Below, piece by piece: positions 4,477 through 30,057 of a stretch of 32,670 nt of DNA (the stretch's first letter is position 1; the number at the start of each line of letters is the position of its first letter). The position numbers and the translations under genes were made by a program. Below the pieces are notes generated by a model. The model was given only the letters and a program-made list of their open reading frames with translations. It searched no databases and was not told the DNA's origin. The DNA is from a virus (taxonomy: Duplodnaviria > Heunggongvirae > Uroviricota > Caudoviricetes), in IMG/VR virus record IMGVR_UViG_3300045988_129198; one strand, given 5' to 3'.

Positions 4477-4896
4477 TCGTGTTTCCGCTTCGCCGGAGCG
4501 CCTTTTCGCGCCATGTGATGAGTTCGGTCAGGCTCATGGGATACAGTTCTGATGGCGGCCAGTGAAATATCACTGCCACATCCGCCATCAGGTCATCGAC
4601 CGAGAGATTTTTCGGGAACGTTACTGCACCGAGTTCGGCGACAAAAAACCGACCACCTTACCGGCCAGCGCCACAAGGTCAGGCAGTTCCAGCGCGGCGA
4701 CTTCCTGCTCGGTCAGCATCGGTGCCGTCATGCGCGGCAGCACCTTAATCAGTGCATCGACTTCGGAGTTCGCGACCGCAGCCAGACTGACACCGCGCAG
4801 CGTCCCGGCATTAGGTTTCATCAGCGTGACCTGTTCGATAACCTGCTCACCACGCTTGACCGGATTGTCCAGGGTAATCACATTTTCTTTGTTCAT
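4469..4896 (-). CDS. E+E': Tail assembly chaperone gpE+E', made by programmed -1 frameshift at the T6G slippery site (plus 4642-4649)
   Basis: After a -1 shift at GGTTTTTTG the frame stays open to TAA at 4469-4471, giving a C-terminus ...LITWREKALRRSGNTNE that overlaps the T start; this is the conserved E/E' arrangement. Confidence 0.75.
4621..4896 (-). CDS. E: Tail assembly chaperone gpE
   Basis: 91 aa, MNKENVITLDNPVKRGEQ..., P2 gpE-like; ends GFLSPNSVQ immediately after a TTTTTTG slippery heptamer. Confidence 0.9.
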   Translation of the reverse strand: MNKENVITLDNPVKRGEQVIEQVTLMKPNAGTLRGVSLAAVANSEVDALIKVLPRMTAPMLTEQEVAALELPDLVALAGKVVGFLSPNSVQ

Positions 4897-5483: not shown

Positions 5484-6674
5484 TTAATTGCTGTTAACCG
5501 AGGTGACCAGATTTGCCAGGTATTTATCGGTAATACGCTGGCGCAGGGTCAGGTTTTCAAGAGGAGGCACCGGTGTATAGTCGTAGTCGATATACAGTTT
5601 TCCGGCCTTGAGGGTTTCCGCATCGTTGGATTCTTCGCTGAACCAGCAGGTCGCATCCACGATATAGCCGTTTGTTTTCAGCTCACGGAATTTGGCATTG
5701 ATGCCGTCAACGATGTCGCGAATCAGCGTTGCGGTGATGGGCTTGTCCACCGCCCACATGTGCGCCTCAGCCATCGTGTCGGCCATCACCTGCGCGGTGC
5801 GGGTGTAGTTTTCAAAGAGGAACAGCGGGTCATCAGAGCAGGTACGGTTACCCCAGAATCGGAAACCGTCGCGGCGAATCAGCGTAGTGACGCCTGACTC
5901 GTTAAGCAGGTCAGCATCGGTGCCGGACTCCTGCAAATCCCAGAATACAGATGCGCTGATGCCGGTAACACCGTTTACCCCGACGTTGGACAGCGTTTTA
6001 TGCCAGCCCTGCTCCTGGTCGATTTTAGCGCGCAGACCCAGCGCACGGGCGGTGGCATACGCGGTGGCGGTGGTACTGGTGACCGTATCCCATGCGAGGA
6101 AATCCGGCCAGATGACCATCAGCTCACGCTGGCTGAAATTCTGGCGGTAGGCTTTCACCTCGGAAATGGTCTTACAGCCCCATGCGCTGATATATCCGAA
6201 AGCGCGCAGCTTCTGACAGACGGATGCCAGTGCAACAGCCACCTCTTTGGTATCCAGTCCCGGCACACCGAGAATACGCGGTTTAACACCGGTTACCGAC
6301 TCCGCCGCCAGCAGGGCTTTTAGTCCGGTGTACTGACCGTTTTCGTCGGTGGTGCCGATGATATTGGAAACGGTCTGCGCGAGTTTCGTTTCCTCGTCAT
6401 CACCGGTGCCGTCTTCCACGCGCACGACAACGGTGACCGGTTTTGACTGGTCAGCGATGGCCTGCAACGATGCCGCCAGCGTGCCTTTTTTACCGGCCTT
6501 TGCAATTGCGCTTTGCACATTGGTAATCAGCACCGGTTTATTGAGGGGGAAGGTTTCCGCATCCGCATCGCTGGCCGTGCAGACCATGCCGACAATGGCA
6601 GTGGATACGGTGGAAATGACGCGGGTGCCGTCGTTAATCTCCAGCACCTGCACGCCATGATGATAGTCACTCAT
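5484..6674 (-). CDS. FI: Contractile tail sheath protein gpFI
   Basis: 396 aa; P2 FI length and position. Confidence 0.9.
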   Translation of the reverse strand: MSDYHHGVQVLEINDGTRVISTVSTAIVGMVCTASDADAETFPLNKPVLITNVQSAIAKAGKKGTLAASLQAIADQSKPVTVVVRVEDGTGDDEETKLAQTVSNIIGTTDENGQYTGLKALLAAESVTGVKPRILGVPGLDTKEVAVALASVCQKLRAFGYISAWGCKTISEVKAYRQNFSQRELMVIWPDFLAWDTVTSTTATAYATARALGLRAKIDQEQGWHKTLSNVGVNGVTGISASVFWDLQESGTDADLLNESGVTTLIRRDGFRFWGNRTCSDDPLFLFENYTRTAQVMADTMAEAHMWAVDKPITATLIRDIVDGINAKFRELKTNGYIVDATCWFSEESNDAETLKAGKLYIDYDYTPVPPLENLTLRQRITDKYLANLVTSVNSN

Positions 6675-6769
6675 CCGTTTAACTCCGTGGTTAATGGGTG
6701 CAACTATTTTCTGTTGTGCAGAGCATAAGACGCTATTTGACCTGGCTGGTCAGTGGATGAAACAACAGA

Positions 6770-6800
6770 TAAAGAAAAGGCGGGCAATTCGCCCGCCTGT
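6770..6800 (-). terminator. Intrinsic terminator between the accessory island / V-G operon and the FI operon
   Basis: GC stem AGGCGGGC-AATT-GCCCGCCT (6777-6800), followed on the minus strand by a T-rich tract (plus 6770-6778 aaagaaaag). Confidence 0.6.
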
Positions 6801-6853
6801 CCTGATTTGTACTCACTCATTTTCCGCCTGACAATTTACATAGCCCAAATGCT

Positions 6854-6876
6854 ATCAAATCTGACAGTCTGCTTTG
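6854..6876 (+). repeat. Repeat site L (core CTGACAGTCT), left boundary of the accessory cassette
   Basis: ATCAAATCTGACAGTCTGCTTTG; a near-identical direct copy at 9164-9186 and an inverted copy at 9287-9308. Confidence 0.7.
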
Positions 6877-7004
6877 AGCGAAAAGTGGACATTAGAGTTA
6901 CAAAAGCAAGTTTAAATCATCCAAAATATTACAATGTCCTTATCTATCTGATATCGTTATGATAAAAAGCTCCTGAATATAATCGATAGTAGGTGGTTAT
7001 TTCC

Positions 7005-7382
7005 ATGAAATCAATTTTAGAGGTTTTTACTCAAGGAAATACTAAAGAAAAACTGGCTGTTATCGCCGATCTCACAACCATTGCGGGAATATCGATTGCA
7101 ACTATTATTGCTGGTTTGTTAACCCTAGTTGCAAAAACAGATAAACTAGATATTGGAAATCTGTTTGGAGTTGTCATAATATCTCTGCTCGGATTGGCTG
7201 GTGTTTGCTGTTTTGTGGCCTTATTTATTTGGGTTATAACCCAAATGTCTAAACCATGGGGAACACCTCGGGGGGTTCAGCCCTTAGTTAAGTGTGCTAT
7301 TTCCCTTATCTTTATCTGTATGTTTTTACTGGCTGTCTTTACATTTTATGAGTTTATTTCTTCGATGAGCATACGCTATTGA
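7005..7382 (+). CDS. Small integral membrane protein (3 predicted TM helices), function unknown
   Basis: ATG at 7005 preceded by AGGTGG; the track ORF begins at GTG 6993. Three hydrophobic segments of about 20-25 aa; AT-rich codon usage unlike the phage backbone. Confidence 0.6.
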   Translation: MKSILEVFTQGNTKEKLAVIADLTTIAGISIATIIAGLLTLVAKTDKLDIGNLFGVVIISLLGLAGVCCFVALFIWVITQMSKPWGTPRGVQPLVKCAISLIFICMFLLAVFTFYEFISSMSIRY

Positions 7383-7404
7383 ATATAAAATCAGCCCCCA
7401 TAAC

Positions 7405-7989
7405 TTAAAAGAGACCTTCTATATCGACTTCAATGCCCAAATAACGGACTGTGCTTTCCAGTTTCTTATGGCCCAACAGAAGTTGGATCACCCGGAGACT
7501 CTTGGTTTTCTTGTAGATTAAGTAAGGTTTTGTTCTTCTCATGGAATGTGTGCTGTACAGCGAATCTTCGAGACCAAGCTTTTCTACCCACCCATGAAAA
7601 ATTCGGTTGTATTGCCGGGTTGATATATGGTGGTTAGTTCCGACCCGAGAGCGGAACAGGAAGCCTTTACTATGCAAGTTGCCGAGCTTTATCAATGCAG
7701 TAACCGCTTCCCTTGTCCCTTTGGTTATCTCAAATTGGACAGGGCTGCCGGTTTTCTGTTGCAACACCGTTGCTCTGCTTGAGACAGAACTGCCATATGC
7801 AGCATCTGATACTTTGAGTTTGACCAAATCACAGCCCCGTAGCTTAGTGTCCAAAGCCATGTTGAACAGAGCTAGATCGCGTGTTTTACCTTCCAACTCA
7901 AGTCTAATCCGGATCCCCCAGATATGAGATATCTGAAGTGGCCTTTTTTGACCGATGGTACGGTCTTTATTCCACGGTGACGTTTTCAT
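7405..7989 (-). CDS. Small tyrosine recombinase (FimB/FimE-like size, phage-integrase catalytic fold)
   Basis: C-terminal HSMRRT...LRVIQLLLGHKKLESTVRYLG resembles the HxxR / LGH / Y boxes of tyrosine recombinases, and LRGCDLVKLKVSD resembles box I. First ATG at 7987-7989 with AGGAG 7 nt upstream; the track ORF extends to a TTG at 8091. Confidence 0.7.
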   Translation of the reverse strand: MKTSPWNKDRTIGQKRPLQISHIWGIRIRLELEGKTRDLALFNMALDTKLRGCDLVKLKVSDAAYGSSVSSRATVLQQKTGSPVQFEITKGTREAVTALIKLGNLHSKGFLFRSRVGTNHHISTRQYNRIFHGWVEKLGLEDSLYSTHSMRRTKPYLIYKKTKSLRVIQLLLGHKKLESTVRYLGIEVDIEGLF

Positions 7990-8095
7990 ATTCAAATCTC
8001 CTGCAATGTGGGAGATTTGAGTATGGTTGTCTCTCAAGAGCGAAAATAAGTCAACTATCACTAGTTGTTGCGCATGTACGTATTCTGTCAATTAA

Positions 8096-8938
8096 TTATT
8101 GACAATCATCAATTCTGGAATGATCAAAATCATCATATCGAATTATAGTCTGGTTGACTGTATCTATTGTTGGTGTCATTTCTGTTATAATATCCTGATA
8201 ACCTAAAGAGTTAAATACATTTACTAAGGCCTCACACCGAAGGGCCGTAGCAATTACAAAATTATAAATTGCCAGCCGTTTATTTTCTTGTTTAACTGCA
8301 AGAATGAATTCGATAGCAGTATTTTCATCACTTTGGATTGCATTATATAGAGATACTATATTTACCATATCATCAGAGAATGTATGTATTGAATCACAAA
8401 GGGGAACGTAATGGGCATGATAGTGTGTTTCCCAGCCAATTAATTCAAAAAGTTTTCTGGTTCCTGGATATTCAGGTGTATTTGGCCACAATCTATTAAA
8501 TAGATCAGTTAGTTCTTTTCCCATGCGAATCCTTTCATTTGCTGCTGGATTAGTCATTCCTTTGGATTTTAAACACTCCAGCCACCGTTTTCCATTACTA
8601 TGAACTAATTTCTTACTAGCCTTGAGTAATGCTTGTGCATTTTCGCCATCATCTATTGCTATATAAAATTGATTGGCAGCCTGTTCTATTATAACCCTAG
8701 CTAATACTTCCGATGCTGAAAAGGCTCCTATATTCAAAGAAGAGATAGCCTGATTACTAAGTTCATTCAGTACATTAAAGTACTGTAAGACCATCAATTT
8801 TTGTTCCACACCCTTTAGGTTGTCTATTTTATTTTTATGCTCCTCAAATTTTGCATGGATATATTTATTTATCGCGGCTATTTTTTTTACATCTTCGTCA
8901 AGATCAAACGGGCAACGTCCAAACAATTCTTTTTTCAT
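8096..8938 (-). CDS. Hypothetical 280-aa protein (cargo gene, no motif recognised)
   Basis: ATG at 8936-8938 with strong AGGAGA RBS; AT-rich; located upstream of and co-oriented with the recombinase gene. Confidence 0.75.
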   Translation of the reverse strand: MKKELFGRCPFDLDEDVKKIAAINKYIHAKFEEHKNKIDNLKGVEQKLMVLQYFNVLNELSNQAISSLNIGAFSASEVLARVIIEQAANQFYIAIDDGENAQALLKASKKLVHSNGKRWLECLKSKGMTNPAANERIRMGKELTDLFNRLWPNTPEYPGTRKLFELIGWETHYHAHYVPLCDSIHTFSDDMVNIVSLYNAIQSDENTAIEFILAVKQENKRLAIYNFVIATALRCEALVNVFNSLGYQDIITEMTPTIDTVNQTIIRYDDFDHSRIDDCQ

Positions 8939-9163
8939 ATATTTCTCCTGTTGTACAAGCTTCCATACGTTGGCAGATTATACACTGAAGATTACCTATA
9001 AATAGCTGTGCGGGATAGCAGATCAGTGCAAGAAGTACAACCAAGTGAACTGTGCGTATTCAGATACCTGGCCTAACGTTCGCGATAGCCGTCCCCTGCA
9101 CGAAGCCATATATTAGATGTATTAGCTCAGACCTTATCTGACAGGTTGAGTAGGTAGAATCTA

Positions 9164-9186
9164 ATCAAAGCTGACAGTCTGGTTTG
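9164..9186 (+). repeat. Repeat site M (direct copy of L)
   Basis: ATCAAAGCTGACAGTCTGGTTTG, 21/23 identical to site L. Confidence 0.7.
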
Positions 9187-9286
9187 GACTGTGAGTTCAA
9201 CTGATGGATGCAACACACAGCGATCTACGGACATTACTAGCATAGCTGTGTATTAATCATCGGGAAGCAGGTCAGTCCGCTCCTAG

Positions 9287-9308
9287 CACAGAGCAGACTG
9301 TCAGATTA
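9287..9308 (-). repeat. Repeat site R (inverted copy of L/M), lying in the loop and 5' arm of a 10-bp-stem hairpin
   Basis: Reverse complement AATCTGACAGTCTGCTCTGTGC; 16 nt identical to L; flanked by stem 9284-9293 / 9316-9325 (TAGCACAGAG/CTCTGTGCTA). Confidence 0.7.
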
Positions 9309-9359
9309 GGCTTTACTCTGTGCTATAGATACGTTAGCTCACTCCAGAGATCATACAAC

Positions 9360-9887
9360 TTATTGCGGCATTTCCGGCCATTCAGGATTTGCAGGATCCA
9401 CACGGCTGACCAGAACACTGTAGCGTTCCCATGCTTCCAGTCGGCTACGCTCCTCATCTGTTGCCATATTCAGTCTGACAGAGCGTTCCAGTGGCTGAAT
9501 GATAGTTTCAGCTTCGGAAAGCAAAGCTGACTTCTGTAATTCCGCCAGTTGCAGCTGTTCGTCTGCCGTATAAATCCGCTTAATCACGGCACCATCCTTA
9601 AACATCCATTTACCTGAGTCATCAGCACGTCGGTTGGCGGTAATATCAGGAACCTCGACAACGCTAAAACCTTCAGGGTTGAGCGTTGAAGCATCTCTGG
9701 TGATGCCGACAATTATATTATTCTCATCGTAAACAATCTTTATCGTGTCTTCCTGAAAATTACTTACTTCCTCATACCAGTTTTTTCCCTCTTCGGACCA
9801 TAACCAGATAACATCAAAATTTTTTGTCAGTTGATATTGGGCAACAGTTTTTGGATTACCCGCAGTAATATTTTTTAAATGCTGCAT
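9360..9887 (-). CDS. G: Tail fiber assembly chaperone gpG
   Basis: 175 aa; P2 gpG size; immediately downstream of H. Confidence 0.85.
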
Positions 9888-9890
9888 AAA

Positions 9891-12626
9891 TTACACCTGT
9901 GCGACGTTATACCATGTGCCATTGATGTATTTTTGTATTGGTCTGAATACTGCGGGGTCATCACCATCGACTTCACCGACAATACCAAGCCCGGTAATTA
10001 CGTGCCCTGCTTTCTCATACATCACCCCTTTCTGCATGGTCTGGACAACACGTGTGCCAAGTCTGACATCTCTCACATAGCGGGAATCAAAGTTACCGTA
10101 ATCCGAGGGATTAACACGCCCCGTAATATTTATGGTTTTATTACTTTGAACGCTTCCGGAGACAAAGCGCATAACATGGACGCTATTAGCATAAACATCC
10201 AGATTACCATCACCATTTTGTTTAAAGCCCGTGTCATTATCACCCAAAACAATCGAATTACCGCCAAGAGCACTGGATGTTCCTATACCCAGAGCACCAT
10301 TCAATTGACCACCAGATAACGGCAGTGCACCGACATCTCCCGCTGTAGGTTTTCGCGTTGTGGTATAAAACTCAGACCAGTCAGCCTCGAATCCGTAACC
10401 GTCACGAGCAGAACGATAAAAAATACCACCGTTCTTATAATTAACGCGAAACTGGGCGGCGGGACAACTTCCTTCCCCGATATTAAAATGAAGAATTAAC
10501 GTTGATGCCCCACCAATAGTTGCGTTATAGGCTCCGCTACTCCAGTTCCATCCAACGGCTTTATCATTCGCAACGGTGTCTCCTGTTTTTCCTGAAGCAA
10601 ATGCACCAATACTTTTCGGCGTCAGGTTAATATCTGATGTTCCATCAAACGAAACGTTATTAATTTTACGGGCTGTTTTCAGCTTTGTTGCTGTCGCCGC
10701 ATTGCCGGACAGTTCACCAGAAAGGCCAGCACTGAATGTCTGTTTCGCGCCCCATGTCTGGGCTTCGTCAATGATTGGTACTCGTCTTGTTGTGATCGTG
10801 CGGCCTCCCGGATTTCCTGAAATGCGCACCATAAAAAAGCGGTAGTTGGCTTTACTTACAGTGCTGCGCCATACATGCATTGAGCGCCCCGAACCAGAAT
10901 CATCACTCGGACCGACTGAGATGTTTATCAGGTTGCCATCAATGACGCCCCAGTCCATACCGTCGGGAATGTTGGTCATATTATCAAGCCGAACGGTTAT
11001 CAGACTGCCCGGCACAAAATCGTAGGTCTGCCAGTCCAGACTGGATAGTTTTGCCACTGCGCCACCGATGCCCAGATTCAGAGGCAACGAAAAGGAGTTA
11101 TATACTTCTCGCCATTCGGTCCATTTGCTCCCGGCATAGACGCGCTCAAAAGTGCGCCCCTGTGTGGTTTCTGATTTCCCTGTGGTTGTGTAACGCTGCC
11201 AGACAGATACACCATCAAAACGCCTGATTACTTCCAGTATTCCAAGCAGTGTCGCTCCAGCGGTATCCTGCATTGGACCGTTTGACGCCTTCCCTGTAAC
11301 GCTGTAAATGCCTGGCGAAGTCAGATCATTCAAATCACCTTCGTAATAACGACATTCTGACTGATGGCCTACTCTTGACCACGGCTCCCACTGTGGGTTC
11401 TGTGCATTCCATATAGCAGAAAGGCAGCGAACATATACGTTCCCACGGCGGGTCGTATAGCGTTGCGTGCGTGAGTACCCACCACCCTCAAGAACTTCAA
11501 GGAATCCCTGACCATAACTTCCTTCTTCCGGATAGTTGCGGTCAAATGAAGCGATAGTGCCACTACTGTTTCGCCATAAACCAAGATGCTCTGCGCCTCC
11601 TAGCGTGTTCAGGTCAATAGTTGTGCTCAGGGGGCGTGTTGCAGACTGAATCTGACGCCAGTAGATCCACGGACCGTCTGAGCCATTCCAGGTGCCAGAA
11701 AGATTACGCATATAAACATTGCCAGTTCTGGTGGTATAACGCTGCATTCCGGAAAAATTACCGCCATTGAATACCTCAAGAACACCGACTGCACCGTCTT
11801 CAGGGAAATTTTTCTCCAGTGTTGCGTTGGAGGATGTGGATTTATACCAGACACCCACATAAGCCTTAACTGGACCAAATGTATTGAGATCAGCATCAAC
11901 CGGCATTTCGCCGTTGTTTTTCATAAACGTCAGGCTGGTAACACCAATATTGTCCAGAAAAGCTGATTTATCCTGGATATCTGCACCGTTCTGATTTTTC
12001 GCCAGACGTGAATTTGCGTTGTCATTTGCTGCCTTGACCGCTTTTGGCGTTGCCGCCAGCTCTTCACTGGTGCTGTTTGTTGCACTGCTTAACTGAGTAA
12101 AACCTTTTTCTGTCAGCGTGGCGTCAGGATGGCGGCGGGACTGCTCATGCTCTGCGATTTTGTCATCGACGTAATCCTGCGTCGCCATCACTGTGCTGGC
12201 ATCAATACTCAGCTCAACGGACGCCACGTTGCTGAGAATAATAACCATGCGGCAGGTCTGCGCACGTCCGGAGCCTTCAGCCAGTTCTGGCTTATAGCTT
12301 TCAGCCATGTTGGATACCGCAATCAGTGTTCCGGCATCGTCATACAGACCAAGCTCACGCATCCAGAAGCCGCCCACTTCGGGCGGTACAACCAGTTCAG
12401 CCACAATATAGTTTTTATTCTTATTATCCACACTGACTTTATTCAGAGCGTGACGCCAGACCTCATGCACCAGTTTCGTCTGACCGGCATCCGGCACCGG
12501 TAATTTGCCATTACCGTCACCCACGGCCATTGCAGACAGGTTTACTTTTTTCCCGCCGGGGACAGTGGCGGCTGCCAGCTTTGCGGCTCCGGCAGTAGTG
12601 ATAACGGTTTTAAATTTCGTGCTCAT
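9891..12626 (-). CDS. H: Tail fiber protein gpH (911 aa, three internal tandem repeats, extended C-terminal region)
   Basis: N-terminus MSTKFKTVITTAGAAKLAAA is the conserved P2 H baseplate-attachment region; three repeats of about 90 aa each contain QRYTT(R/T)xGNVY. Confidence 0.9.
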   Translation of the reverse strand: MSTKFKTVITTAGAAKLAAATVPGGKKVNLSAMAVGDGNGKLPVPDAGQTKLVHEVWRHALNKVSVDNKNKNYIVAELVVPPEVGGFWMRELGLYDDAGTLIAVSNMAESYKPELAEGSGRAQTCRMVIILSNVASVELSIDASTVMATQDYVDDKIAEHEQSRRHPDATLTEKGFTQLSSATNSTSEELAATPKAVKAANDNANSRLAKNQNGADIQDKSAFLDNIGVTSLTFMKNNGEMPVDADLNTFGPVKAYVGVWYKSTSSNATLEKNFPEDGAVGVLEVFNGGNFSGMQRYTTRTGNVYMRNLSGTWNGSDGPWIYWRQIQSATRPLSTTIDLNTLGGAEHLGLWRNSSGTIASFDRNYPEEGSYGQGFLEVLEGGGYSRTQRYTTRRGNVYVRCLSAIWNAQNPQWEPWSRVGHQSECRYYEGDLNDLTSPGIYSVTGKASNGPMQDTAGATLLGILEVIRRFDGVSVWQRYTTTGKSETTQGRTFERVYAGSKWTEWREVYNSFSLPLNLGIGGAVAKLSSLDWQTYDFVPGSLITVRLDNMTNIPDGMDWGVIDGNLINISVGPSDDSGSGRSMHVWRSTVSKANYRFFMVRISGNPGGRTITTRRVPIIDEAQTWGAKQTFSAGLSGELSGNAATATKLKTARKINNVSFDGTSDINLTPKSIGAFASGKTGDTVANDKAVGWNWSSGAYNATIGGASTLILHFNIGEGSCPAAQFRVNYKNGGIFYRSARDGYGFEADWSEFYTTTRKPTAGDVGALPLSGGQLNGALGIGTSSALGGNSIVLGDNDTGFKQNGDGNLDVYANSVHVMRFVSGSVQSNKTINITGRVNPSDYGNFDSRYVRDVRLGTRVVQTMQKGVMYEKAGHVITGLGIVGEVDGDDPAVFRPIQKYINGTWYNVAQV

Positions 12627-15142: not shown

Positions 15143-15185
15143 GATTACTTAACTGGCAAAAAAACATCCTCACTAATTGGAGCCA

Positions 15186-16277
15186 ATGGATACACGCATG
15201 TCAGACATTCTAATTACTTATGATGAACGGAAAGATAAATTTGAGTCCTATGCCCTTACTCTTAAATCGTTATTAACCACGTTAATTCGCAATGAAAAAA
15301 TTTCAATTCACTCACTTGAATCAAGAGTTAAAACAAAAAAAAGCCTTGAAGGTAAGATTAATAAAAAGGGAAAATACAAGTCTATAGATGATATTACTGA
15401 TATCGTTGGTATCAGGATCATCACACATTATGCTGATGATGTTGATAAGATAGCTGCTATAGTTGAAAAGGAGTTCACCATTGACCAAGAGAACTCTATT
15501 GATAAAAGAACCTCAATTGCGCCTGATAAATTTGGTTACCTATCACTTCATTATATAGTAACTTTAAACTCAACCAGAACAAACTTAAAAGAATATGAAG
15601 TATATAAAAACATCAAAGCCGAATTACAAATACGATCAATCCTTCAGCATGCCTGGGCGGAGATTGAACACGACATTGGTTATAAGTCGGCCACAGGACT
15701 GCCTAATGAAATAAGAAGATACTTTTCACGCTTAGCTGGTCTTTTAGAAATGGCCGATGATGAATTTATTAAAATCAGAAAAAAGATTTCTGAACGGCAG
15801 AAAGAGGTTGCAAAAGAACTAGAGCAAGGAACTAGTGATTCAGTTTTAGATATTTTCACTTTGGATGAGTTCTTAAACACAAGTCGAATTATGAGTGAAC
15901 TTTCAGAAGAGATAAAAGAAAAAACAGGAATCACAGTACATGGCCGATACAAGGATAAAGATTTGGGATACCTACTAAATGGTTTAAACCTAGCCAACAT
16001 AACTACAATAGAACAACTCAATCAAAAACTCTCACAAATGAAAAAGCAGATCGTAGATAGAATATTCTGCTTCGGAGAACCATTTATTAATTATTGCAGA
16101 GAAACCCCCATGCCAAAAGAAGCTCTTTTGAGTTATTTATGTCAAATTATCGTTGCGTTTCAAAACTCACCTTCGTTAGAATCTGAATTTAATAACAAAG
16201 CAGGTTTAAATCTGAAAAACAGCAATATCTCCGATTTTTTCTCGAATATAAGAGAAAACATAAGCACACAACCTTAG
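15186..16277 (+). CDS. RelA/SpoT-domain nucleotidyltransferase (toxSAS), candidate fused toxin-antitoxin of CapRel type
   Basis: Synthetase-domain signatures SRVKTKKSLEGKI...DIVGIRIITHYADD and ELQIRSILQHAWAEIEHDIGYK. About 363 aa with a C-terminal domain of about 150 aa with no recognisable motif. Start is ambiguous (TTG 15177, ATG 15186 or ATG 15198). AT-rich, on the opposite strand to the flanking late genes, at the P2 orf30 position. Confidence 0.8.
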   Translation: MDTRMSDILITYDERKDKFESYALTLKSLLTTLIRNEKISIHSLESRVKTKKSLEGKINKKGKYKSIDDITDIVGIRIITHYADDVDKIAAIVEKEFTIDQENSIDKRTSIAPDKFGYLSLHYIVTLNSTRTNLKEYEVYKNIKAELQIRSILQHAWAEIEHDIGYKSATGLPNEIRRYFSRLAGLLEMADDEFIKIRKKISERQKEVAKELEQGTSDSVLDIFTLDEFLNTSRIMSELSEEIKEKTGITVHGRYKDKDLGYLLNGLNLANITTIEQLNQKLSQMKKQIVDRIFCFGEPFINYCRETPMPKEALLSYLCQIIVAFQNSPSLESEFNNKAGLNLKNSNISDFFSNIRENISTQP

Positions 16278-25707: not shown

Positions 25708-25726
25708 GTGCTTTCCCCGCCTCGCC
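25708..25726 (-). other. cos cohesive-end sequence (P2-type, 19 nt)
   Basis: Plus-strand GTGCTTTCCCCGCCTCGCC is the reverse complement of GGCGAGGCGGGGAAAGCAC, which I recall as the P2 cohesive end; the position between Q and the A-side genes is as expected. Confidence 0.6.
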
Positions 25727-25853
25727 CGCCCGCTTCATGGGGCGGTTTTGATGCGGAGACGCCCCTCCCTAAAATAGCATGACATCTGACCGCATCTAAA
25801 AAAAATAGAGGGTCTAATACAACGCATTTAAATGCAGCTAAAGATGCAAAGAC

Positions 25854-26477
25854 TCATACTAACTTGTCTATTGAAATTACAAGCTTTTCGATGAAGTTCT
25901 TAACTACTACCATATCATCACCAGTTATGGGCCAAGGCTCACGAGGTGTAATTGGTTGCATGTCACCTTCATGTGCTATCTTATTACGTCGATCAACAAT
26001 CGCATTCAGATTTAATCTCAGTGACTTAGATTCTAAATCGGCATTACTATTCGTAGCACCTTGATCTATTGCAACCTCTCTCCACAAGGAAATATTTGAA
26101 ATCAGCCTAATTCCATCAGCAATAGATTCACTGGTTTGATACGTTTGAATCCCAAGTTGTCGCCTAACTTCTAAGTCATAAATTTGGTCACGAGTCCAAG
26201 CGTTGTTAAAAATATTATTCATAACACTATGGGGCATTGTAAACTTATCGTATTTCTGCGTACTAGCCCTCCTTCCCTGAAAAATCTCAAGCATCCGCTG
26301 CGCGACAAGTTCATGAATATATAAATCTAAAGCAGAAACTCTAGCAACCCACTCAGCTCTCAGAATTTCTCGAGAATCAAATACACTCGAAAAATTAGTA
26401 GAAGTATAAGCATATGTCACAGATAACAAATCACATCTAATCCAAGCACGGTCAAATATCGATTTTGGCGTTGACAT
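25854..26477 (-). CDS. Hypothetical 207-aa protein with an R-x4-H motif (candidate HEPN-like RNase effector)
   Basis: C-proximal IVDRRNKIAHEGD contains R-N-x3-H; AT-rich; starts 4 nt after the upstream ParA-like gene's stop. Confidence 0.6.
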   Translation of the reverse strand: MSTPKSIFDRAWIRCDLLSVTYAYTSTNFSSVFDSREILRAEWVARVSALDLYIHELVAQRMLEIFQGRRASTQKYDKFTMPHSVMNNIFNNAWTRDQIYDLEVRRQLGIQTYQTSESIADGIRLISNISLWREVAIDQGATNSNADLESKSLRLNLNAIVDRRNKIAHEGDMQPITPREPWPITGDDMVVVKNFIEKLVISIDKLV

Positions 26478-26480
26478 ACT

Positions 26481-27524
26481 TCAATCTCTTGTCAGGGCGA
26501 TAACCCTTTCTGCACAAGTGTCAAATGCAGCAGAAAATACAGTCATATTTTTTTCCGTCTGATCCCAAACAGCGCCTTTCTGACCAGTCTGTTGGGCTGT
26601 CAGTGTGTAGACTGGAACTTGAAATTCCTGAGACATAGCAATCAGACTATTGAAATCAGAGACTTCCATTATTGGGTCAGAAGGAGGCATCCCTGCTTTT
26701 TGCTCAAACTCGACTACATCCAACATATCAAACTCAACAAGTTTCGGGATTAGCAAAGAAATTAAGTTATCTCGAAGTTCATCAATCCATTTTTGGAAGG
26801 CCGCAGATGCCTGACCATTGCGTGGTCTATACTTTTGGACGATAGAACCTATAAATTTCACGTTAGACTCAGGGAATGGATAGTTAGCATTCTGGAGCAA
26901 CTCCATTCGTGAAGCCATGTTTGCCCATTGTTTCCATCTTGGTAAAGTACGAGCGAGAGAAGAAAGGGCCATCGACGAGAAATAATCAGGATGAAGAGGT
27001 ACGATAAAATAATCTGATGTAGTTAAAATGTTTTGGTTCAATGGCCCCAGGCTCGGGCTCATATCAACAATCACATAATCTGCATTTACTTTTTCAGCAG
27101 TTAGGTCAAACAAATACCTGATAGAACCAGGAAGGTTTTTAAGTGGTAATAATGACCCCGTTAATTCTTGAGCTACACCTAATGTAGTTTCATACTCAGA
27201 AAGCCCAATATGGCCGGCAAGAAGATGCAAGTTTGCATTACCCTCGATATCAAACACTTCTGCAGGTTCAATCGCACTTGGTTTAGACTCAAAAGCAGGA
27301 GAAAGGGCGTCACGAATATTATTGGCTACTGGTTGATTATAAATCTGTTCTAAATCCGCAATGCCTCTAAATCCAAGAATCATTCCGGTAAGATTACATT
27401 GTGGATCACAATCAGCTAGCAAAACCTTATGACCTTTCTCAGCCAACTTCCAACCTAAGTTAAACGCAGTAGTAGTTTTACTTACTCCACCCTTATGATT
27501 AAACAAACAGATTACCTTCGCCAT
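26481..27524 (-). CDS. ParA/MinD-family P-loop ATPase
   Basis: Deviant Walker A KGGVSKTT near the N-terminus, DCDPQ A' motif and hydrophobic Walker B (YVIVDMSP); 347 aa; AT-rich. Confidence 0.8.
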   Translation of the reverse strand: MAKVICLFNHKGGVSKTTTAFNLGWKLAEKGHKVLLADCDPQCNLTGMILGFRGIADLEQIYNQPVANNIRDALSPAFESKPSAIEPAEVFDIEGNANLHLLAGHIGLSEYETTLGVAQELTGSLLPLKNLPGSIRYLFDLTAEKVNADYVIVDMSPSLGPLNQNILTTSDYFIVPLHPDYFSSMALSSLARTLPRWKQWANMASRMELLQNANYPFPESNVKFIGSIVQKYRPRNGQASAAFQKWIDELRDNLISLLIPKLVEFDMLDVVEFEQKAGMPPSDPIMEVSDFNSLIAMSQEFQVPVYTLTAQQTGQKGAVWDQTEKNMTVFSAAFDTCAERVIALTRD

Positions 27525-27722
27525 TATGCAACGCCCTTAACCGACAGATGTGTAGTACCCCATCATAGAACGTATATTCTGCCACAGCCAGTGAATTAAA
27601 ACTAAACCTGTAAAGTGTCAGATATTCACATTCATCAGATTCTAAGTTTTATCTTACGTCCACCGCGATTTAGGAAGATTTTCGGATTTTATCAAATTGT
27701 ATGATGATACAACGTTATGCGA

Positions 27723-29792
27723 TTAAAATCGCTCACCACTTCTTTGCTGTCGATATCGCCGCTGTATATGGCATTTCAAAACTTCCCTAAATACCAACAC
27801 AGCTTCGGGGTCATCCCATGCTATAACACCGTCATCAACCAGATTAAGCACGGCTGCAGCATGTTCAGAAGGTGTGGGAGCCGGTAACGAAGTATCACTG
27901 CCGGTGAGCTTTCCACAGTTATTGACAGGACTCCGAGGCGCGGCGATGCCGCTTTTTAAAGTCAAAGGCTCAACGACCGGAACTTTCGGCACAATGCGCC
28001 AGTCCGTCGTTCTGGTGATATGAATATGACGCGCGCCGAGATGCGGCGCGTAAATGCCGACCACTCTCTCAACTTCTTCCTCGTACTCGTTAACGTCATC
28101 CGACGGGCTACGGGCAACCCTGACAGTCTGACAATCGCGCGGGACATTTGCCCCACCCTGCGCGCTGATATACAACGCAAAATCACCACTGTCTGCGGCA
28201 GCGCGAGCAGCCTCGACGCGTTCGTCAAACTCATCAGCAATACTGACGCCGCGAGGCAATTTGCGTAGTTCACGGTAAGCCCCCATTGTCGGCAGTCCAA
28301 CCGTTTTAAATTGCGGGATGCGCCACGTTGACGCCCATGCGGTAACAGCCGCGGCAGTATCTTTAAGCGGCTTACCGGTATCGTTATCGAGCTGACCATC
28401 CAGTGCATAGCCGTCGATATTTTTTGAAATGTATTTCGCGATATATCCCGCAGCACCGCCCCGGTTAAGGTGTTTTGCCTGAAAACGGTTTCGCGCAGCT
28501 CCTCTTTCATCGCCATCCTCTTTGAGCGCATAGCGACGCATGATTTCGATAATCTGGTTACGCTGGCGCGGATTACAAAAAAGCATCATATGCCAGTGCG
28601 GCGTTCCGTCGTGGTGTGGCTCGACGACACGCAAACCGTAGACCTGTAAATCATTATCCTTGAATGCCGTGCGCATCAGGCTCCAGATACGGCAGAGATA
28701 ACGCTGCGCATCCTTTGGATTAAATGCCTCATCGTTCCAGCCGTGATTAAGCTGCACGGTTTTACTTTCGCCTTTTCCGACCTGACGTGTCGGGTGATAC
28801 TTTGACGGCGCGGTCAGCGTGATAAACATCCCCACATCACCCTCTGCGGCGGCGTAACGCTCAATACCGGCAATGGTGTTCATCAGCTCCATCCGGCGAA
28901 TTTCAGGATTAGAAATACTGCCCATCACCTTACTGATAAGGTCGATGCGCTCGCCGGTTTCCCTGTTTTCGAGGTCACACGATTTAAGAAATTCCAGATT
29001 TGCCTGGCGGCGCGCACGCACATCACGAATGGCATGTTTACTGGCATAAGGAGAACGGTCTTTATTGACCTCCCCGACAGCTATCAGTAACGCCTCATGC
29101 CAGCGCATACGCTGGCCTTTAAGCTGATGAGTCCACCACTCATCGTTAAACAGGCGGGCAATGGCAGAATATGCCTGCCTCGTGGTCATCTGTCCTTTAC
29201 GGTATTTTTTCCAGTAGAGAGGGGAAATATTGAAAGCACGTGCAGCGCCAGCAACATGACCATACAGGTGAGCCTGCGCCTCATCCGTAAACAGCGATTC
29301 TTTTTCGCCATGCGCATCCACCCAAGCATCGCTGAGTTCCTCATACATCATGAAAAGCTGCGATGAGATACGGGCGGCAAACTTTTTCAGCTCCTTGTCA
29401 TTCATTCCCGGCAGTCGCGCATAGTGGTCACGCTCTGCCAGAAACAGCAACGACGCGTCGGTGTTCATTTCATGGCGCTGATTCACACGCTCAATGCGCG
29501 GCCATAAACGACGCTGAAAAGTGGATGTGAGGAAATAAAACCCGTGCACCGGGCTTTTATTGCGCCGGATGTAGTCATAGCGTGAAGTAAACAGCGAGCG
29601 CAAAAAGTAAGGCAGGCGGTTAATCGTGGATAAAACACCTTGCACCTGACGCATCTCGTCACGTGTAAGGGGTCTTTCGCGCCCGACAGCCTCGCGTGGC
29701 GCGTTCCATGCATAAGCACCGGTAAACGCCTTACCGGTGCCTGCAGCAAATGCTGACGGAGGGACAAAACGCCCGGAGGCTTTAACGGCCAT
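27723..29792 (-). CDS. A: Replication initiation endonuclease gpA (rolling-circle)
   Basis: About 689 aa from the ATG at 29790-29792 (MAVKASGRFVPP...); the track ORF starts at an upstream TTG. P2 gpA-like and directly downstream of the orf80-83 cluster. Confidence 0.85.
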   Translation of the reverse strand: MAVKASGRFVPPSAFAAGTGKAFTGAYAWNAPREAVGRERPLTRDEMRQVQGVLSTINRLPYFLRSLFTSRYDYIRRNKSPVHGFYFLTSTFQRRLWPRIERVNQRHEMNTDASLLFLAERDHYARLPGMNDKELKKFAARISSQLFMMYEELSDAWVDAHGEKESLFTDEAQAHLYGHVAGAARAFNISPLYWKKYRKGQMTTRQAYSAIARLFNDEWWTHQLKGQRMRWHEALLIAVGEVNKDRSPYASKHAIRDVRARRQANLEFLKSCDLENRETGERIDLISKVMGSISNPEIRRMELMNTIAGIERYAAAEGDVGMFITLTAPSKYHPTRQVGKGESKTVQLNHGWNDEAFNPKDAQRYLCRIWSLMRTAFKDNDLQVYGLRVVEPHHDGTPHWHMMLFCNPRQRNQIIEIMRRYALKEDGDERGAARNRFQAKHLNRGGAAGYIAKYISKNIDGYALDGQLDNDTGKPLKDTAAAVTAWASTWRIPQFKTVGLPTMGAYRELRKLPRGVSIADEFDERVEAARAAADSGDFALYISAQGGANVPRDCQTVRVARSPSDDVNEYEEEVERVVGIYAPHLGARHIHITRTTDWRIVPKVPVVEPLTLKSGIAAPRSPVNNCGKLTGSDTSLPAPTPSEHAAAVLNLVDDGVIAWDDPEAVLVFREVLKCHIQRRYRQQRSGERF

Positions 29793-30057
29793 ATGAGCCA
29801 AAAGCCTCTGAACAACGCCTGCTGAGTTGCTCAACCTGCGCGTTTAAATCAGCAAAAGACTTTGCGCTTCCGGTCAGAATATCGTGATGCATCAGGCCGG
29901 AAACGAGCTGGCTTAATTTCGGGTAATAACCAACCACCGCCAGCCATTCCTGACCGGCGTTTTTACCGCTTTCCGCTCTCTTTTTCTCGTGGAGAATAAA
30001 CTGAAAGCTGTCACTGGTAACGACATAACGTTCGCCAATTTCAATACGAAAACTCAT
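29782..30057 (-). CDS. Hypothetical protein (P2 orf83 position)
   Basis: 91-aa ORF placed by synteny between the DksA-like gene and A. Confidence 0.6.
   Translation of the reverse strand: MSFRIEIGERYVVTSDSFQFILHEKKRAESGKNAGQEWLAVVGYYPKLSQLVSGLMHHDILTGSAKSFADLNAQVEQLSRRCSEAFGSYGR

What the first reader, a model, noticed from the sequence alone, without database searches (positions are those of the whole stretch)
25854..27722. Two-gene operon at the tin/old hotspot: ParA/MinD-family ATPase plus a 207-aa protein with an HEPN-like R-x4-H motif
Between cos and the end of A, where P2 carries tin/old, sits an AT-rich two-gene operon. The first gene is a 347-aa deviant-Walker-A ParA/MinD-type ATPase. 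The second starts 4 nt after its stop and encodes a 207-aa protein whose C-proximal RRNKIAHEG matches the R-(N)-x3-H HEPN RNase motif. No partition centromere or plasmid context is present, so a partitioning role is unlikely. An ATPase paired with a HEPN-like nuclease resembles abortive-infection architectures, but I do not recognise this pair as a named system.
Basis: partly seen in the sequence, partly recalled or inferred. Interest (0 to 1): 0.8.

Follow-up and report, generated by a model that had tools for sequence, protein, structure and literature searches.

The report
Phage-borne ParA-like ATPase plus HEPN RNase
A P2-like prophage carries, in its known anti-phage cargo slot, a tightly coupled gene pair (a ParA/MinD-type ATPase and a HEPN-fold predicted RNase) that travels as a unit across many bacteria and phages and is most likely an untested toxin-plus-regulator defence module.

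Summary
Two abutting minus-strand ORFs (347 aa, 27524-26481; 207 aa, 26477-25854) fill the low-GC gap between P2 cos (25708-25726) and gene A.

The pair is an obligate dyad. The ATPase lies directly upstream of the HEPN gene in about 78 of 80 genomic and 18 of 19 viral loci from many phyla, with no third conserved gene. The two proteins co-evolve (r = 0.80).

It occupies both P2 hotspots, Pf inovirus accessory regions and a decayed Enterobacter prophage where only the pair stayed intact. It is almost absent from plasmids, which argues against partition.

Related ATPases pair with RelA_SpoT, DUF5855 or SIR2 proteins.

No named or tested system matches. The nearest precedents are a ParA/Soj-HEPN toxin-antitoxin dyad predicted in 2013 and an untested "HEPN_RiboL-PSP | AAA_31" entry in Rousset 2022.

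Most likely it is a HEPN RNase toxin gated by a ParA-like ATPase, acting in abortive infection or addiction. Function is inferred, not shown.

The parts
27525..27722 (-). AT-rich non-coding leader between the gpA stop and the ATPase start. Cassette homology with the Enterobacter copy begins about 90 nt upstream of the ATG. It contains a conserved -10-like TATGAT (27567-27562) and a Shine-Dalgarno-like AAGGG (27538-27534). It is the probable own promoter, which is inferred.
   Evidence: Sequence and alignment with the Enterobacter and Morganella upstream regions. The consensus sigma-70 scan found no strong site here. There is no Rfam hit, no repeats, and the fold z-score is +0.71, so no antitoxin RNA is indicated.
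26481..27524 (-). 347-aa ParA/MinD-fold (SIMIBI) ATPase with a deviant Walker A (K11, K16), D38xDPQxN44, Walker B D154 and P179-D180. It is the predicted regulator, antitoxin or sensor of the pair.
25854..26477 (-). 207-aa HEPN-fold protein of Pfam family HEPN_RiboL-PSP. The catalytic-type motif R163-R164-N165-x-I167-x-H169-E170 is present, and D51 and H55 are also invariant. It is the predicted RNase toxin or effector.
25727..25853 (-). Downstream spacer between the HEPN stop and cos. It is homologous to the Enterobacter copy and contains the 12-nt palindrome GCATTTAAATGC (25824-25835) followed by a T-run. It may be a terminator, which is inferred.
   Evidence: Sequence; alignment A8.
25708..25726 (-). 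P2-type cos cohesive-end sequence. It marks the boundary of the hotspot and is not part of the module.
   Evidence: Exact match, none expected by chance. The Enterobacter copy of the cassette is followed by the same sequence with 1 mismatch.
27723..29834 (-). P2 gpA-type replication nickase. It is the other boundary of the hotspot and is context only.
   Evidence: PHROG_91, E = 0.

Best explanation
The two genes form one self-contained, horizontally mobile conflict module carried as cargo ('moron') by temperate phages.

**Proposed mechanism.** The 207-aa HEPN protein is the effector, an Rx4H endoribonuclease whose unleashed activity arrests translation. The upstream, translationally coupled ParA/MinD-type ATPase is its cognate regulator. 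In the resting lysogen it keeps the RNase inactive, either by binding it or by an ATP-dependent conformational or covalent mechanism. A perturbation then releases or activates the RNase. That perturbation could be infection by a competing phage, or loss or shut-off of the module, with the ATPase's nucleotide- or DNA-bound state as the sensor. The outcome is abortive infection or superinfection exclusion that protects the lysogen population and the resident P2-like prophage. Post-segregational addiction may be a side effect.

**Shown here.**
- Both folds and both sets of catalytic-type motifs.
- Strict two-gene synteny, co-evolution and tight gene spacing.
- Absence of a third gene or an RNA partner.
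- Residence in recognised anti-phage hotspots of three kinds of mobile element.
- Selective retention of the pair in a decayed prophage.
- Near absence from plasmids.
- Pairing of related ATPases with other toxin-type effectors.

**Inferred.** RNase activity and toxicity; that the ATPase neutralises or gates the RNase; physical interaction between the two proteins; the trigger; and the anti-phage phenotype.

For: **3. The dyad is obligate.**
- An ATPase ortholog (47-68% identity) lies directly upstream on the same strand in about 78 of 80 species-representative genomic loci. About 70 are full length. The rest are cut by contig ends or are partial or degraded matches. One locus, L048, has none.
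- The same holds in 18 of 19 viral loci.
- All-against-all clustering of neighbouring ORFs finds only these two recurrent genes, in 78 and 77 of 82 loci. The next cluster occurs in 7 loci.
- The gap between the ORFs is -50 to +18 nt. ATPase and HEPN pairwise distances correlate (r = 0.80; Mantel 0 of 999).

**4. The context points to conflict.**
- In the window the pair occupies the gpA-cos-gpQ hotspot that holds old/tin and many validated defence systems (PMC9122126; PMC9519451).
- In a Morganella P2-like prophage it occupies the second P2 hotspot, the Z/fun position.
- It sits in the accessory region of Pf5 and WX-TY inoviruses.
- It sits near repressor and CII-like genes of other temperate phages.
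- In Enterobacter it survives intact between a gpA remnant and a frameshifted gpQ pseudogene.

**5. Related ATPases have swappable effectors.**
- A 44%-identical ATPase pairs with a different HEPN in P4 hotspots (system 47).
- A 30%-identical one pairs with RelA_SpoT or DUF5855 in the P2 hotspot (systems 110 and 129).
- A 29%-identical one pairs with SIR2_2 in a viral contig.

**6. The HEPN family has a validated defence member.** PD-T4-2_B is labelled RiboL-PSP-HEPN in the DefensePredictor tables, and PD-T4-2 protects against T4 (PMC9519451).

**7. There is an independent prediction.** A ParA/Soj-HEPN dyad was proposed as toxin (HEPN) and antitoxin (ATPase) in PMC3710099.
Against: - No experiment exists for this pair or any close homolog. 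Toxicity, neutralisation, complex formation and phage protection are all unshown.
- Neither protein matches a known defence model in PADLOC v2 beyond a Walker-A-only hit.
- A sample of 128 neighbouring genes from 74 loci showed very heterogeneous contexts: housekeeping genes, mobile-element genes and a few R-M, PIN or kinase genes. No family occurred in more than 2 proteins, so enrichment in defence islands was not demonstrated.
- The ATPase is more conserved than the HEPN protein. That is atypical for labile type II antitoxins, though compatible with an enzymatic antitoxin or a sensor.
- The alternative-effector pairings involve ATPases only 29-30% identical, so they support the theme rather than this clade directly.
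- My attempt at a complex prediction failed technically.
Confidence: 0.65

Rival explanations
1. The pair is a pure addiction module (toxin-antitoxin) that stabilises the prophage or genomic island carrying it, with no role against other phages. The ATPase is the antitoxin and the HEPN protein is the toxin.
For: The order is the classic two-gene one, with the putative antitoxin first and the ORFs overlapping or abutting. The pair is scattered in heterogeneous chromosomal contexts, including among housekeeping genes. It is retained intact in a decayed prophage. The 2013 prediction framed such dyads as TA systems.
Against: - The module repeatedly lands in the very loci of P2, P4-like and Pf elements where validated anti-phage systems reside.
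- P2 prophages are very stable and need no addiction (general knowledge).
- A 347-aa ATPase with every catalytic-type motif conserved is an unusually elaborate antitoxin, which suggests a sensing role.
- Many TA modules turn out to act in defence, so this rival overlaps with the best explanation rather than excluding it.
Confidence: 0.17
2. The ATPase is a genuine partition or positioning ATPase. It would segregate or position an episomal phage form (for example the inovirus replicative form) or a cellular cargo, with the HEPN protein as its non-catalytic adaptor in place of ParB.
For: The fold and motifs are those of ParA, McdA and MinD positioning ATPases. The NCBIfam and PHROG names say 'partition'. 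The pair occurs in inoviruses, which have episomal replicative forms.
Against: - No ParB-like gene and no centromere-like repeats flank the operon.
- Relatives occur in only 13 of 72,556 plasmids.
- All NCBIfam partition models score far below their cut-offs, for example 60 bits against 180-348.
- P2 integrates. The pair also sits in chromosomes between housekeeping genes.
- The partner keeps an invariant Rx4H catalytic-type motif, which an adaptor would not need.
- Related ATPases pair with RelA_SpoT or SIR2 effectors.
Confidence: 0.05
3. The module serves the phage's own programme rather than host defence. The RNase would be deployed during lytic growth or induction to degrade host or competitor transcripts, or to counter an RNA-based host defence, and the ATPase would time its action.
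For: The pair is co-directional with, and just downstream of, the early replication gene A, so read-through from the early operon is possible. It is carried by several unrelated temperate phages.
Against: - The pair is just as common in chromosomes with no phage genes nearby.
- It is kept intact after the prophage has decayed, which indicates a benefit, or addiction, in the absence of phage development.
- Its low GC and its hotspot position are typical of lysogen-expressed morons.
Confidence: 0.08

Closest known systems
ParA/Soj ATPase + HEPN (MAE_18760 family) gene dyad, predicted as a toxin-antitoxin system (Anantharaman et al. 2013, PMC3710099)
   Same: A two-gene module with a ParA/Soj-type SIMIBI ATPase next to an Rx4-6H HEPN protein. 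The ATPase is proposed as antitoxin and the HEPN protein as RNase toxin.
   Different: The window's HEPN protein belongs to the sibling Pfam family HEPN_RiboL-PSP (45.7 bits). It scores only 16.2 bits on the MAE_28990/MAE_18760 model, below the 26.8 cut-off. The 2013 table lists RiboL-PSP-HEPN with ParB, not ParA. That dyad was never tested experimentally as far as my searches show. Its phage-hotspot residence was not described.
[quoted passage not shown] 2022, Table S1B)
   Same: The ATPase belongs to the same clade: 44% identity over 345 aa, E 1e-98. Its partner carries an R-N-x3-H-E motif. It sits in a cos-proximal hotspot of a P2/P4-family element. The authors annotated it 'Likely a RNAse'.
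   Different: The HEPN partners are not detectably similar by BLAST beyond the motif. The P4 partner scores only 17.9 bits on PF18735. The listed gene order is HEPN then ATPase. The host element is P4 rather than P2. The system does not appear in the paper's tables of tested systems.
HepT/MntA (HEPN-MNT) type VII toxin-antitoxin systems
   Different: The partner is a ParA-fold ATPase, not a MNT nucleotidyltransferase. The window motif is RRNKIAHEGD and lacks the Tyr of the HepT Rx4HxY motif that MntA AMPylates (that motif is from my own knowledge). The protein is 207 aa with extra helices, against about 130 aa for HepT.
PD-T4-2 (Vassallo et al. 2022), a validated anti-T4 system whose B component is labelled RiboL-PSP-HEPN
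   Same: Same Pfam-level HEPN family label. It is a two-gene system found in E. coli mobile elements.
   Different: PADLOC's PD-T4-2 models do not hit the window protein. The table entry links that system to a GNAT label rather than to a ParA-like ATPase.
ATPase + nuclease abortive-infection systems: OLD, PARIS (AriA/AriB), Septu (PtuA/PtuB), Gabija
   Same: The works-like logic is the same: a P-loop ATPase sensor or regulator coupled to a nuclease effector. These systems sit in the same P2/P4 hotspots (PMC9122126).
   Different: Those ATPases are ABC/SMC-type and their nucleases are Toprim or HNH. Here the ATPase is SIMIBI ParA/MinD-type and the effector is HEPN. There is no sequence or fold relationship.
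AbiF/AbiD-type HEPN toxins (type III TA with an upstream antitoxin RNA; Cas13 ancestors)
   Same: [quoted passage not shown] Both are phage-defence HEPN RNases.
   Different: No antitoxin-RNA candidate was found: no Rfam hit, no repeats and no unusual structure in the flanks. Instead a conserved protein partner is present.
ParABS / McdAB / MinCDE positioning systems
   Same: The ATPase fold and the deviant Walker A are shared.
   Different: There is no ParB, McdB or MinC/E partner and no centromere. The pair is almost absent from plasmids. Its obligate partner is a HEPN protein.

Membership tests
HEPN superfamily | Four-helix up-and-down bundle core (HEPN fold) | tested here: met
HEPN superfamily | Conserved Rx4-6H motif | tested here: met
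   R164-NKIA-H169 is present. R163, R164, N165, H169 and E170 are invariant in 23 homologs down to 29% identity. In 36 homologs R163, R164, H169 and E170 are invariant and N165 is at least 90% conserved.
HEPN superfamily | Metal-independent endoribonuclease activity, usually as a dimer | not testable with these tools
   This needs purified protein and RNA-cleavage assays.
Pfam PF18735 HEPN_RiboL-PSP | Full-length match above the gathering threshold | tested here: met
   45.7 bits against 28.4, covering residues 11-206. Orthologs from five distant lineages score 51-56 bits. Nearly all of the 120 listed database homologs carry PF18735.
ParA/MinD (SIMIBI, deviant Walker A) ATPases | Deviant Walker A KGGxxK[ST] with the signature lysine, plus Walker A'/switch and Walker B aspartates | tested here: met
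   K11-GGVS-K16-TT, D38xDPQxN44 and D154 are invariant across 74 orthologs.
ParA/MinD (SIMIBI, deviant Walker A) ATPases | ParA/MinD fold | tested here: met
ParABS-type partition system | Cognate ParB-like adaptor gene and centromere repeats next to parA | tested here: not met
   Only the HEPN gene follows the ATPase. No repeats occur in the flanks and there is no third conserved gene in 82 loci. NCBIfam partition models score 60 bits against cut-offs of 180-348.
ParABS-type partition system | Residence on low-copy plasmids, episomes or chromosome origins | tested here: not met
   Only 13 of 72,556 plasmid records carry a HEPN relative, all Burkholderia at about 27% identity. The window copy is in an integrating P2-like prophage.
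Two-gene proteinaceous toxin-antitoxin module (type II / type VII-like) | Conserved bicistronic operon with tightly coupled genes, mobile and patchily distributed | tested here: met
   Synteny holds in about 78 of 80 genomic and 18 of 19 viral loci. ORF gaps are -50 to +18 nt and co-evolution gives r = 0.80. Hosts span Proteobacteria, Acidobacteriota, Planctomycetes, Cyanobacteria, Chloroflexi, CPR bacteria and one archaeal MAG.
Two-gene proteinaceous toxin-antitoxin module (type II / type VII-like) | Toxin is growth-inhibitory and is neutralised by the cognate partner | not testable with these tools
   This needs expression and rescue experiments. The complex prediction could not be run.
Anantharaman 2013 ParA/Soj + MAE_18760-HEPN dyad | HEPN partner belongs to the MAE_18760 family | tested here: not met
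   PF18737 (MAE_28990/MAE_18760-like) scores 16.2 bits against a cut-off of 26.8. The best family is PF18735. This is a sibling family with the same architecture.
[quoted passage not shown] | Both proteins homologous to the catalogued pair | tested here: inconclusive
   The ATPase is 44% identical, E 1e-98. The HEPN proteins share only the motif region, with BLAST E > 1.
Known anti-phage defence systems (PADLOC v2.0.0) | Significant match of the components to a system's HMMs | tested here: not met
   The HEPN protein has 0 hits. The ATPase has only PDC-M28B over residues 3-40, the Walker A region.
Anti-phage defence system (functional class) | Enrichment next to known defence genes, or residence in defence hotspots | tested here: inconclusive
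   Hotspot residence is met: P2 gpA-cos (window), P2 Z/fun position, Pf accessory region, and next to a TIR gene in L086. A random sample of 128 neighbours in 74 genomic loci showed no dominant defence signal.
AbiF/AbiD-type type III TA | Upstream structured or repeated antitoxin RNA | tested here: not met
   There are no Rfam hits at E <= 1, no direct repeats, and the leader fold z-score is +0.71.

The most novel reading that the evidence does not exclude
ParA/MinD-type ATPases form a previously unrecognised class of infection sensors or gatekeepers in prokaryotic immunity, analogous to the ABC ATPases of PARIS, Septu and Gabija and to STAND NTPases. Their nucleotide- and DNA-dependent dimer switch would be tripped by phage DNA, by phage ParB-like or DNA-mimic proteins, or by nucleoid disruption, and would then license interchangeable suicide effectors. 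This window would show the HEPN-RNase version. Sister versions use RelA_SpoT, DUF5855 or SIR2 proteins, all shuttling between P2, P4, inovirus and chromosomal hotspots.
Probability: 0.3. Interest if true: 0.8.

Novelty: new variant of a known kind. Interest (0 to 1): 0.62.

Why it matters
HEPN RNases gated by a partner are a recurring solution in bacterial immunity: HepT/MntA, RnlAB, the AbiF RNA system, Csm6 and Cas13. No ParA/MinD-type ATPase has been shown to play the gating or sensing role.

This pair is widespread. The protein search found 741 clusters at 90% identity. The species-representative genome collection (185,579 species) gave 421 confirmed matching stretches. The pair is extremely well conserved as a unit. 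It sits in the best-validated anti-phage hotspots of P2-like phages and in Pf inoviruses of Pseudomonas aeruginosa.

If validated, it would add a new sensor class to the ATPase-plus-effector paradigm. It would also give a function to a large set of 'ParA family' or 'BcsQ' annotations that are probably wrong, and it would explain an accessory locus of clinically relevant Pf prophages.

The module is compact at about 1.9 kb and comes from an enterobacterial P2-like prophage (the closest full-length homologs are from Klebsiella, Enterobacter and Serratia, and an identical fragment is recorded from E. coli), so it is directly testable.

Tried and rejected
- **Complex prediction failed.** The two ORFs are in the same frame, so I tried to fold the read-through chain. 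A Gly-Ser-linked chain gave an unusable alignment, because MAFFT stacked the HEPN homologs onto the ATPase part. I abandoned this and used the last AF2 job on the ATPase alone.
- **Known-defence models.** PADLOC gave no meaningful hit.
- **Near-identical DNA.** The cargo is absent at about 85% identity or more from 5,426 complete E. coli genomes and 50,697 phage records. Only the 57-bp cos-side flank matched.
- **Solved structures.** No PDB sequence relative exists for the HEPN profile.
- **Defence-island enrichment.** Pooled Pfam and PADLOC scans of 128 neighbour ORFs were inconclusive. Contexts are too heterogeneous, and my ORF calling in GC-rich MAGs is crude.
- **Antitoxin RNA or repeat centromere.** Rfam, a repeat search and a fold z-score of the flanks were all negative.
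- **Promoter scan.** No strong sigma-70 consensus lies upstream. There is only a conserved TATGAT.
- **Literature.** Eight full-text searches found no experimental work on a ParA+HEPN pair. 'ParA' hits in the defence papers I opened were the arabinose promoter 'Para'. The Pf-phage papers I opened do not discuss the pair.
- **Ideas considered and dropped.**
  - A programmed read-through fusion: ORF spacing varies from -50 to +18 nt among orthologs.
  - HepT-style AMPylation: the Tyr after the His is absent.
  - An inactive MinD/ParA domain, as in some conflict systems (PMC7159879): all motifs here are intact.
Full report
**1.

The window carries two abutting minus-strand ORFs, 27524-26481 (347 aa) and 26477-25854 (207 aa), separated by 3 nt. 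They lie in a block of 38-42% GC inside a 52-59% GC phage backbone.

The flanks are P2-type genes: large terminase, portal gpQ and replication nickase gpA. The exact 19-nt P2 cos sequence sits at 25708-25726. The pair therefore fills the gpA-cos-gpQ interval. P2 carries old/tin there, and Rousset et al. and Vassallo et al. found many validated defence systems at this locus (PMC9122126; PMC9519451).

**2. What the two proteins are**

The 347-aa protein is a ParA/MinD-type ATPase.
- Profile matches: Pfam AAA_31 6.6e-33 and CbiA, and PHROG_164 'ParA-like partition protein' 2e-45.
- All NCBIfam partition or MinD equivalogs score far below their cut-offs.
- The deviant Walker A (K11, K16), D38xDPQxN44 and Walker B D154 are invariant in 74 orthologs. 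Unlike the inactive MinD/ParA domains described in some conflict systems (PMC7159879), this one looks catalytically competent.

The 207-aa protein is a HEPN-fold protein.
- It matches Pfam HEPN_RiboL-PSP over its full length at 45.7 bits (cut-off 28.4). The sibling MAE_28990/18760 model gives only a sub-threshold 16.2 bits.
- No PDB relative is detectable by sequence.
- R163, R164, N165, H169 and E170, plus D51 and H55, are invariant even in the 29%-identical Pf-phage homologs.

**3. The pair is an obligate, mobile two-gene unit**

*Abundance.* The HEPN protein has 741 database relatives (clusters at 90% identity), almost all annotated PF18735. The closest full-length relative is 84% identical, and an identical 134-aa fragment comes from E. 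coli. A scan of one genome per species confirmed 421 matching stretches.

*Synteny.*
- In the 80 best genomic loci, an ortholog of this particular ATPase (47-68% identical) lies immediately upstream on the same strand in about 78. The loci span Proteobacteria, Acidobacteriota, Planctomycetes, Cyanobacteria, Chloroflexi, candidate-phyla-radiation (CPR) bacteria and one Hadarchaeota MAG.
- About 70 of these ATPase copies are full length. The rest are cut by contig ends or are partial or degraded matches.
- One locus (L048) lacks the ATPase and one is uninformative.
- Of 19 viral-contig loci, 18 show the same arrangement. The 19th is a spurious partial match.

*No third component.* All-against-all clustering of every ORF in 82 loci finds only two recurrent families, the HEPN protein (78 loci) and the ATPase (77 loci). 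The next family occurs in 7 loci. Rfam, repeat and folding analyses of the flanks give no sign of an antitoxin RNA of the kind used by AbiF/AbiD-type HEPN toxins (PMC13064643).

*Coupling and co-evolution.* The ORFs always abut or overlap, with gaps of -50 to +18 nt. ATPase and HEPN pairwise distances are strongly correlated (r = 0.80; Mantel 0 of 999). The HEPN protein evolves faster, with a mean distance of 0.585 against 0.424.

**4. Where the module lives**

Besides the window's gpA-cos hotspot, the pair occurs in these settings.
- **The second P2 hotspot.** In a Morganella P2-like prophage it sits between the tail-fibre assembly gene and the sheath gene, the Z/fun position (hotspot noted in PMC9519451).
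- **Pseudomonas inoviruses.** It lies in the accessory region of Pf5 (Orf317 'Soj-like' followed by an unannotated HEPN ORF) and of phage WX-TY.
- **Other viral contigs.** It occurs in further inovirus-like and tailed temperate phage contigs. Repressor and CII-like regulator genes are among the most frequent other genes within the 8-kb flanks of these loci.
- **An environmental P2-like contig.** There it lies about 600 nt from gpQ (L093).
- **A decayed prophage.** In Enterobacter ludwigii the order is gpA C-terminal remnant, ATPase, HEPN, cos (1 mismatch), then a gpQ pseudogene broken over several reading frames. Only the cargo pair (90% and 79% identical to the window) is intact. The block occurs with or without a neighbouring live P2-like prophage, once next to a TIR/SEFIR gene.
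- **Plain chromosomal contexts.** In Ralstonia, for example, it sits among housekeeping genes.

The pair is nearly absent from plasmids, with relatives in 13 of 72,556 records. The cargo DNA is absent at about 85% identity or more from 5,426 complete E. coli genomes and 50,697 phage records, so this allele is rare.

A pooled annotation of 128 neighbouring ORFs showed very heterogeneous contexts and no clear defence-island signal. I count that test as inconclusive.

**5. Related ATPases have other toxic partners**

Rousset et al.'s supplementary tables list several related entries.
[quoted passage not shown] None appears in their tables of tested systems.

The window ATPase is 44% identical (E 1e-98) to the P4 ATPase and 30.5% identical (E 9e-35) to the P2 one. 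The HEPN partners share only the motif.

Among 80 viral loci with ATPase homologs, those at 57% identity or more always carry the HEPN gene. Those at 35-45% are mixed. One 29%-identical ATPase is followed directly by a SIR2_2 protein.

This pattern of a conserved P-loop regulator with swappable suicide effectors is the hallmark of sensor-effector immune modules. The caveat is that the non-HEPN examples involve distant ATPases.

**6. Most likely mechanism**

The HEPN protein is probably an Rx4H endoribonuclease toxin or effector. The ParA-like ATPase, translated first from the same mRNA, keeps it inactive. It then releases or activates it when its ATP- or DNA-bound state is perturbed, either by a superinfecting phage or by loss of the module. 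The result would be abortive infection or exclusion that benefits the lysogen and the resident prophage.

What is shown:
- folds and motifs;
- synteny, tight gene spacing and co-evolution;
- hotspot residence and retention after prophage decay;
- lack of partition hallmarks.

What is inferred:
- RNase activity and toxicity;
- neutralisation and physical interaction;
- the trigger;
- the anti-phage phenotype.

My confidence is about 0.65 for the toxin-regulator conflict module with a defence role. A pure addiction role is a further 0.17. Partition (0.05) and a role in the phage's own programme (0.08) are less likely, for the reasons given under the rival explanations.

**7. Comparison with what is known, and novelty**

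Works like:
- HepT/MntA and other partner-gated HEPN toxins;
- ATPase-plus-nuclease abortive-infection systems such as OLD, PARIS and Septu.

Member of:
- the HEPN superfamily and Pfam HEPN_RiboL-PSP (criteria met);
- ParA/MinD-fold ATPases (criteria met).

Not a member of:
- ParABS-type partition systems (two defining features tested and not met);
- any PADLOC system;
- PD-T4-2, whose B component shares the Pfam-level label but not detectable HMM similarity;
- the AbiF-type RNA-antitoxin class.

The nearest precedents are purely computational.
- The 2013 ParA/Soj-HEPN (MAE_18760) dyad, predicted to be a TA system.
- The untested P4 'system 47' catalogue entry.
- DefensePredictor, which flags a 334-aa E. 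coli 'ParA family protein' as a putative novel defence gene. I could not retrieve its sequence or neighbours.

I therefore rate the finding as a new variant of a known kind, a partner-gated HEPN toxin or defence module. Its regulator class is unexplored and its distribution is unusually clean.

**8. Verdict**

It is not yet a demonstrated defence system. It is a compact, highly conserved and experimentally tractable candidate. The broader possibility that ParA-like ATPases are a general sensor class for swappable effectors is worth testing. Interest: 0.62.

Noticed in passing
window 15177-16277 (+): A 366-aa ORF on the opposite strand to the surrounding tail and lysis genes, in a 34% GC island. 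It has a RelA_SpoT domain (Pfam 1.9e-21) and hits the PADLOC candidate PDC-S33 (1e-16). It may be a toxSAS- or CapRel-like single-gene defence moron in a third cargo site of the same prophage.
   Followed up: partly
window 7405-8938 (-): A low-GC (35-45%) two-gene insert between the sheath gene (5484-6674) and the tail-fibre genes (9360-12626), which is the P2 Z/fun hotspot. It encodes a DUF5677 protein (280 aa, 5e-10) followed by a short tyrosine-recombinase-like protein (228 aa, Phage_integrase 1.4e-17). Neither has a PADLOC hit.
   Followed up: partly
window 26475-26483: The ATPase and HEPN ORFs are in the same reading frame, separated only by the stop codon and one further codon. Read-through would give a fusion protein. 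The spacing is not conserved among orthologs (-50 to +18 nt), so this is probably incidental.
   Followed up: yes
L083-L086 (Enterobacter ludwigii), 6316-9835: A decayed P2-like prophage fragment: gpA C-terminal remnant, intact ATPase and HEPN genes, cos with 1 mismatch at 8751, then a gpQ pseudogene split over several reading frames. It is present with or without an adjacent live P2-like prophage. In L086 a TIR/SEFIR gene lies between ogr and the pair.
   Followed up: yes
L087 (Morganella morganii CP132554.1), 6957-8624: The same pair (84% and 73% identical) sits between the tail-fibre assembly gene and the sheath gene of a P2-like prophage. This is the other P2 hotspot, the Z/fun position.
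   Followed up: yes
L080 (Thiomargarita MAG), 10001-12274: A tandem arrangement of HEPN (10001-10570), ATPase (10600-11646) and HEPN (11648-12274). It suggests duplicated modules side by side.
   Followed up: no
L178 4001-5918 (and probably L184): A ParA-like ATPase 29% identical to the window's is followed 65 nt downstream by a SIR2_2-domain protein (9e-24) in a viral contig. A 376-aa ORF ends 10 nt before the ATPase and could be a third component.
   Followed up: partly
PMC9122126 Tables S1B/S5B: [quoted passage not shown] The P4 'system 47' pairs a 44%-identical ATPase with a divergent HEPN protein. None appears in the paper's tables of tested systems.
   Followed up: partly
L001 (AY324828, Pf5 prophage of P. 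aeruginosa PA14) 3055-4528: The HEPN ORF downstream of Orf317 ('Soj-like putative regulatory protein') is not annotated in the GenBank record. The Pf-phage papers I opened do not discuss this pair.
   Followed up: partly
database annotations: Many orthologs of the ATPase are named 'cellulose biosynthesis protein BcsQ' or 'ParA family protein' by their sources. Given the strict HEPN linkage, these names are probably misleading.
   Followed up: no
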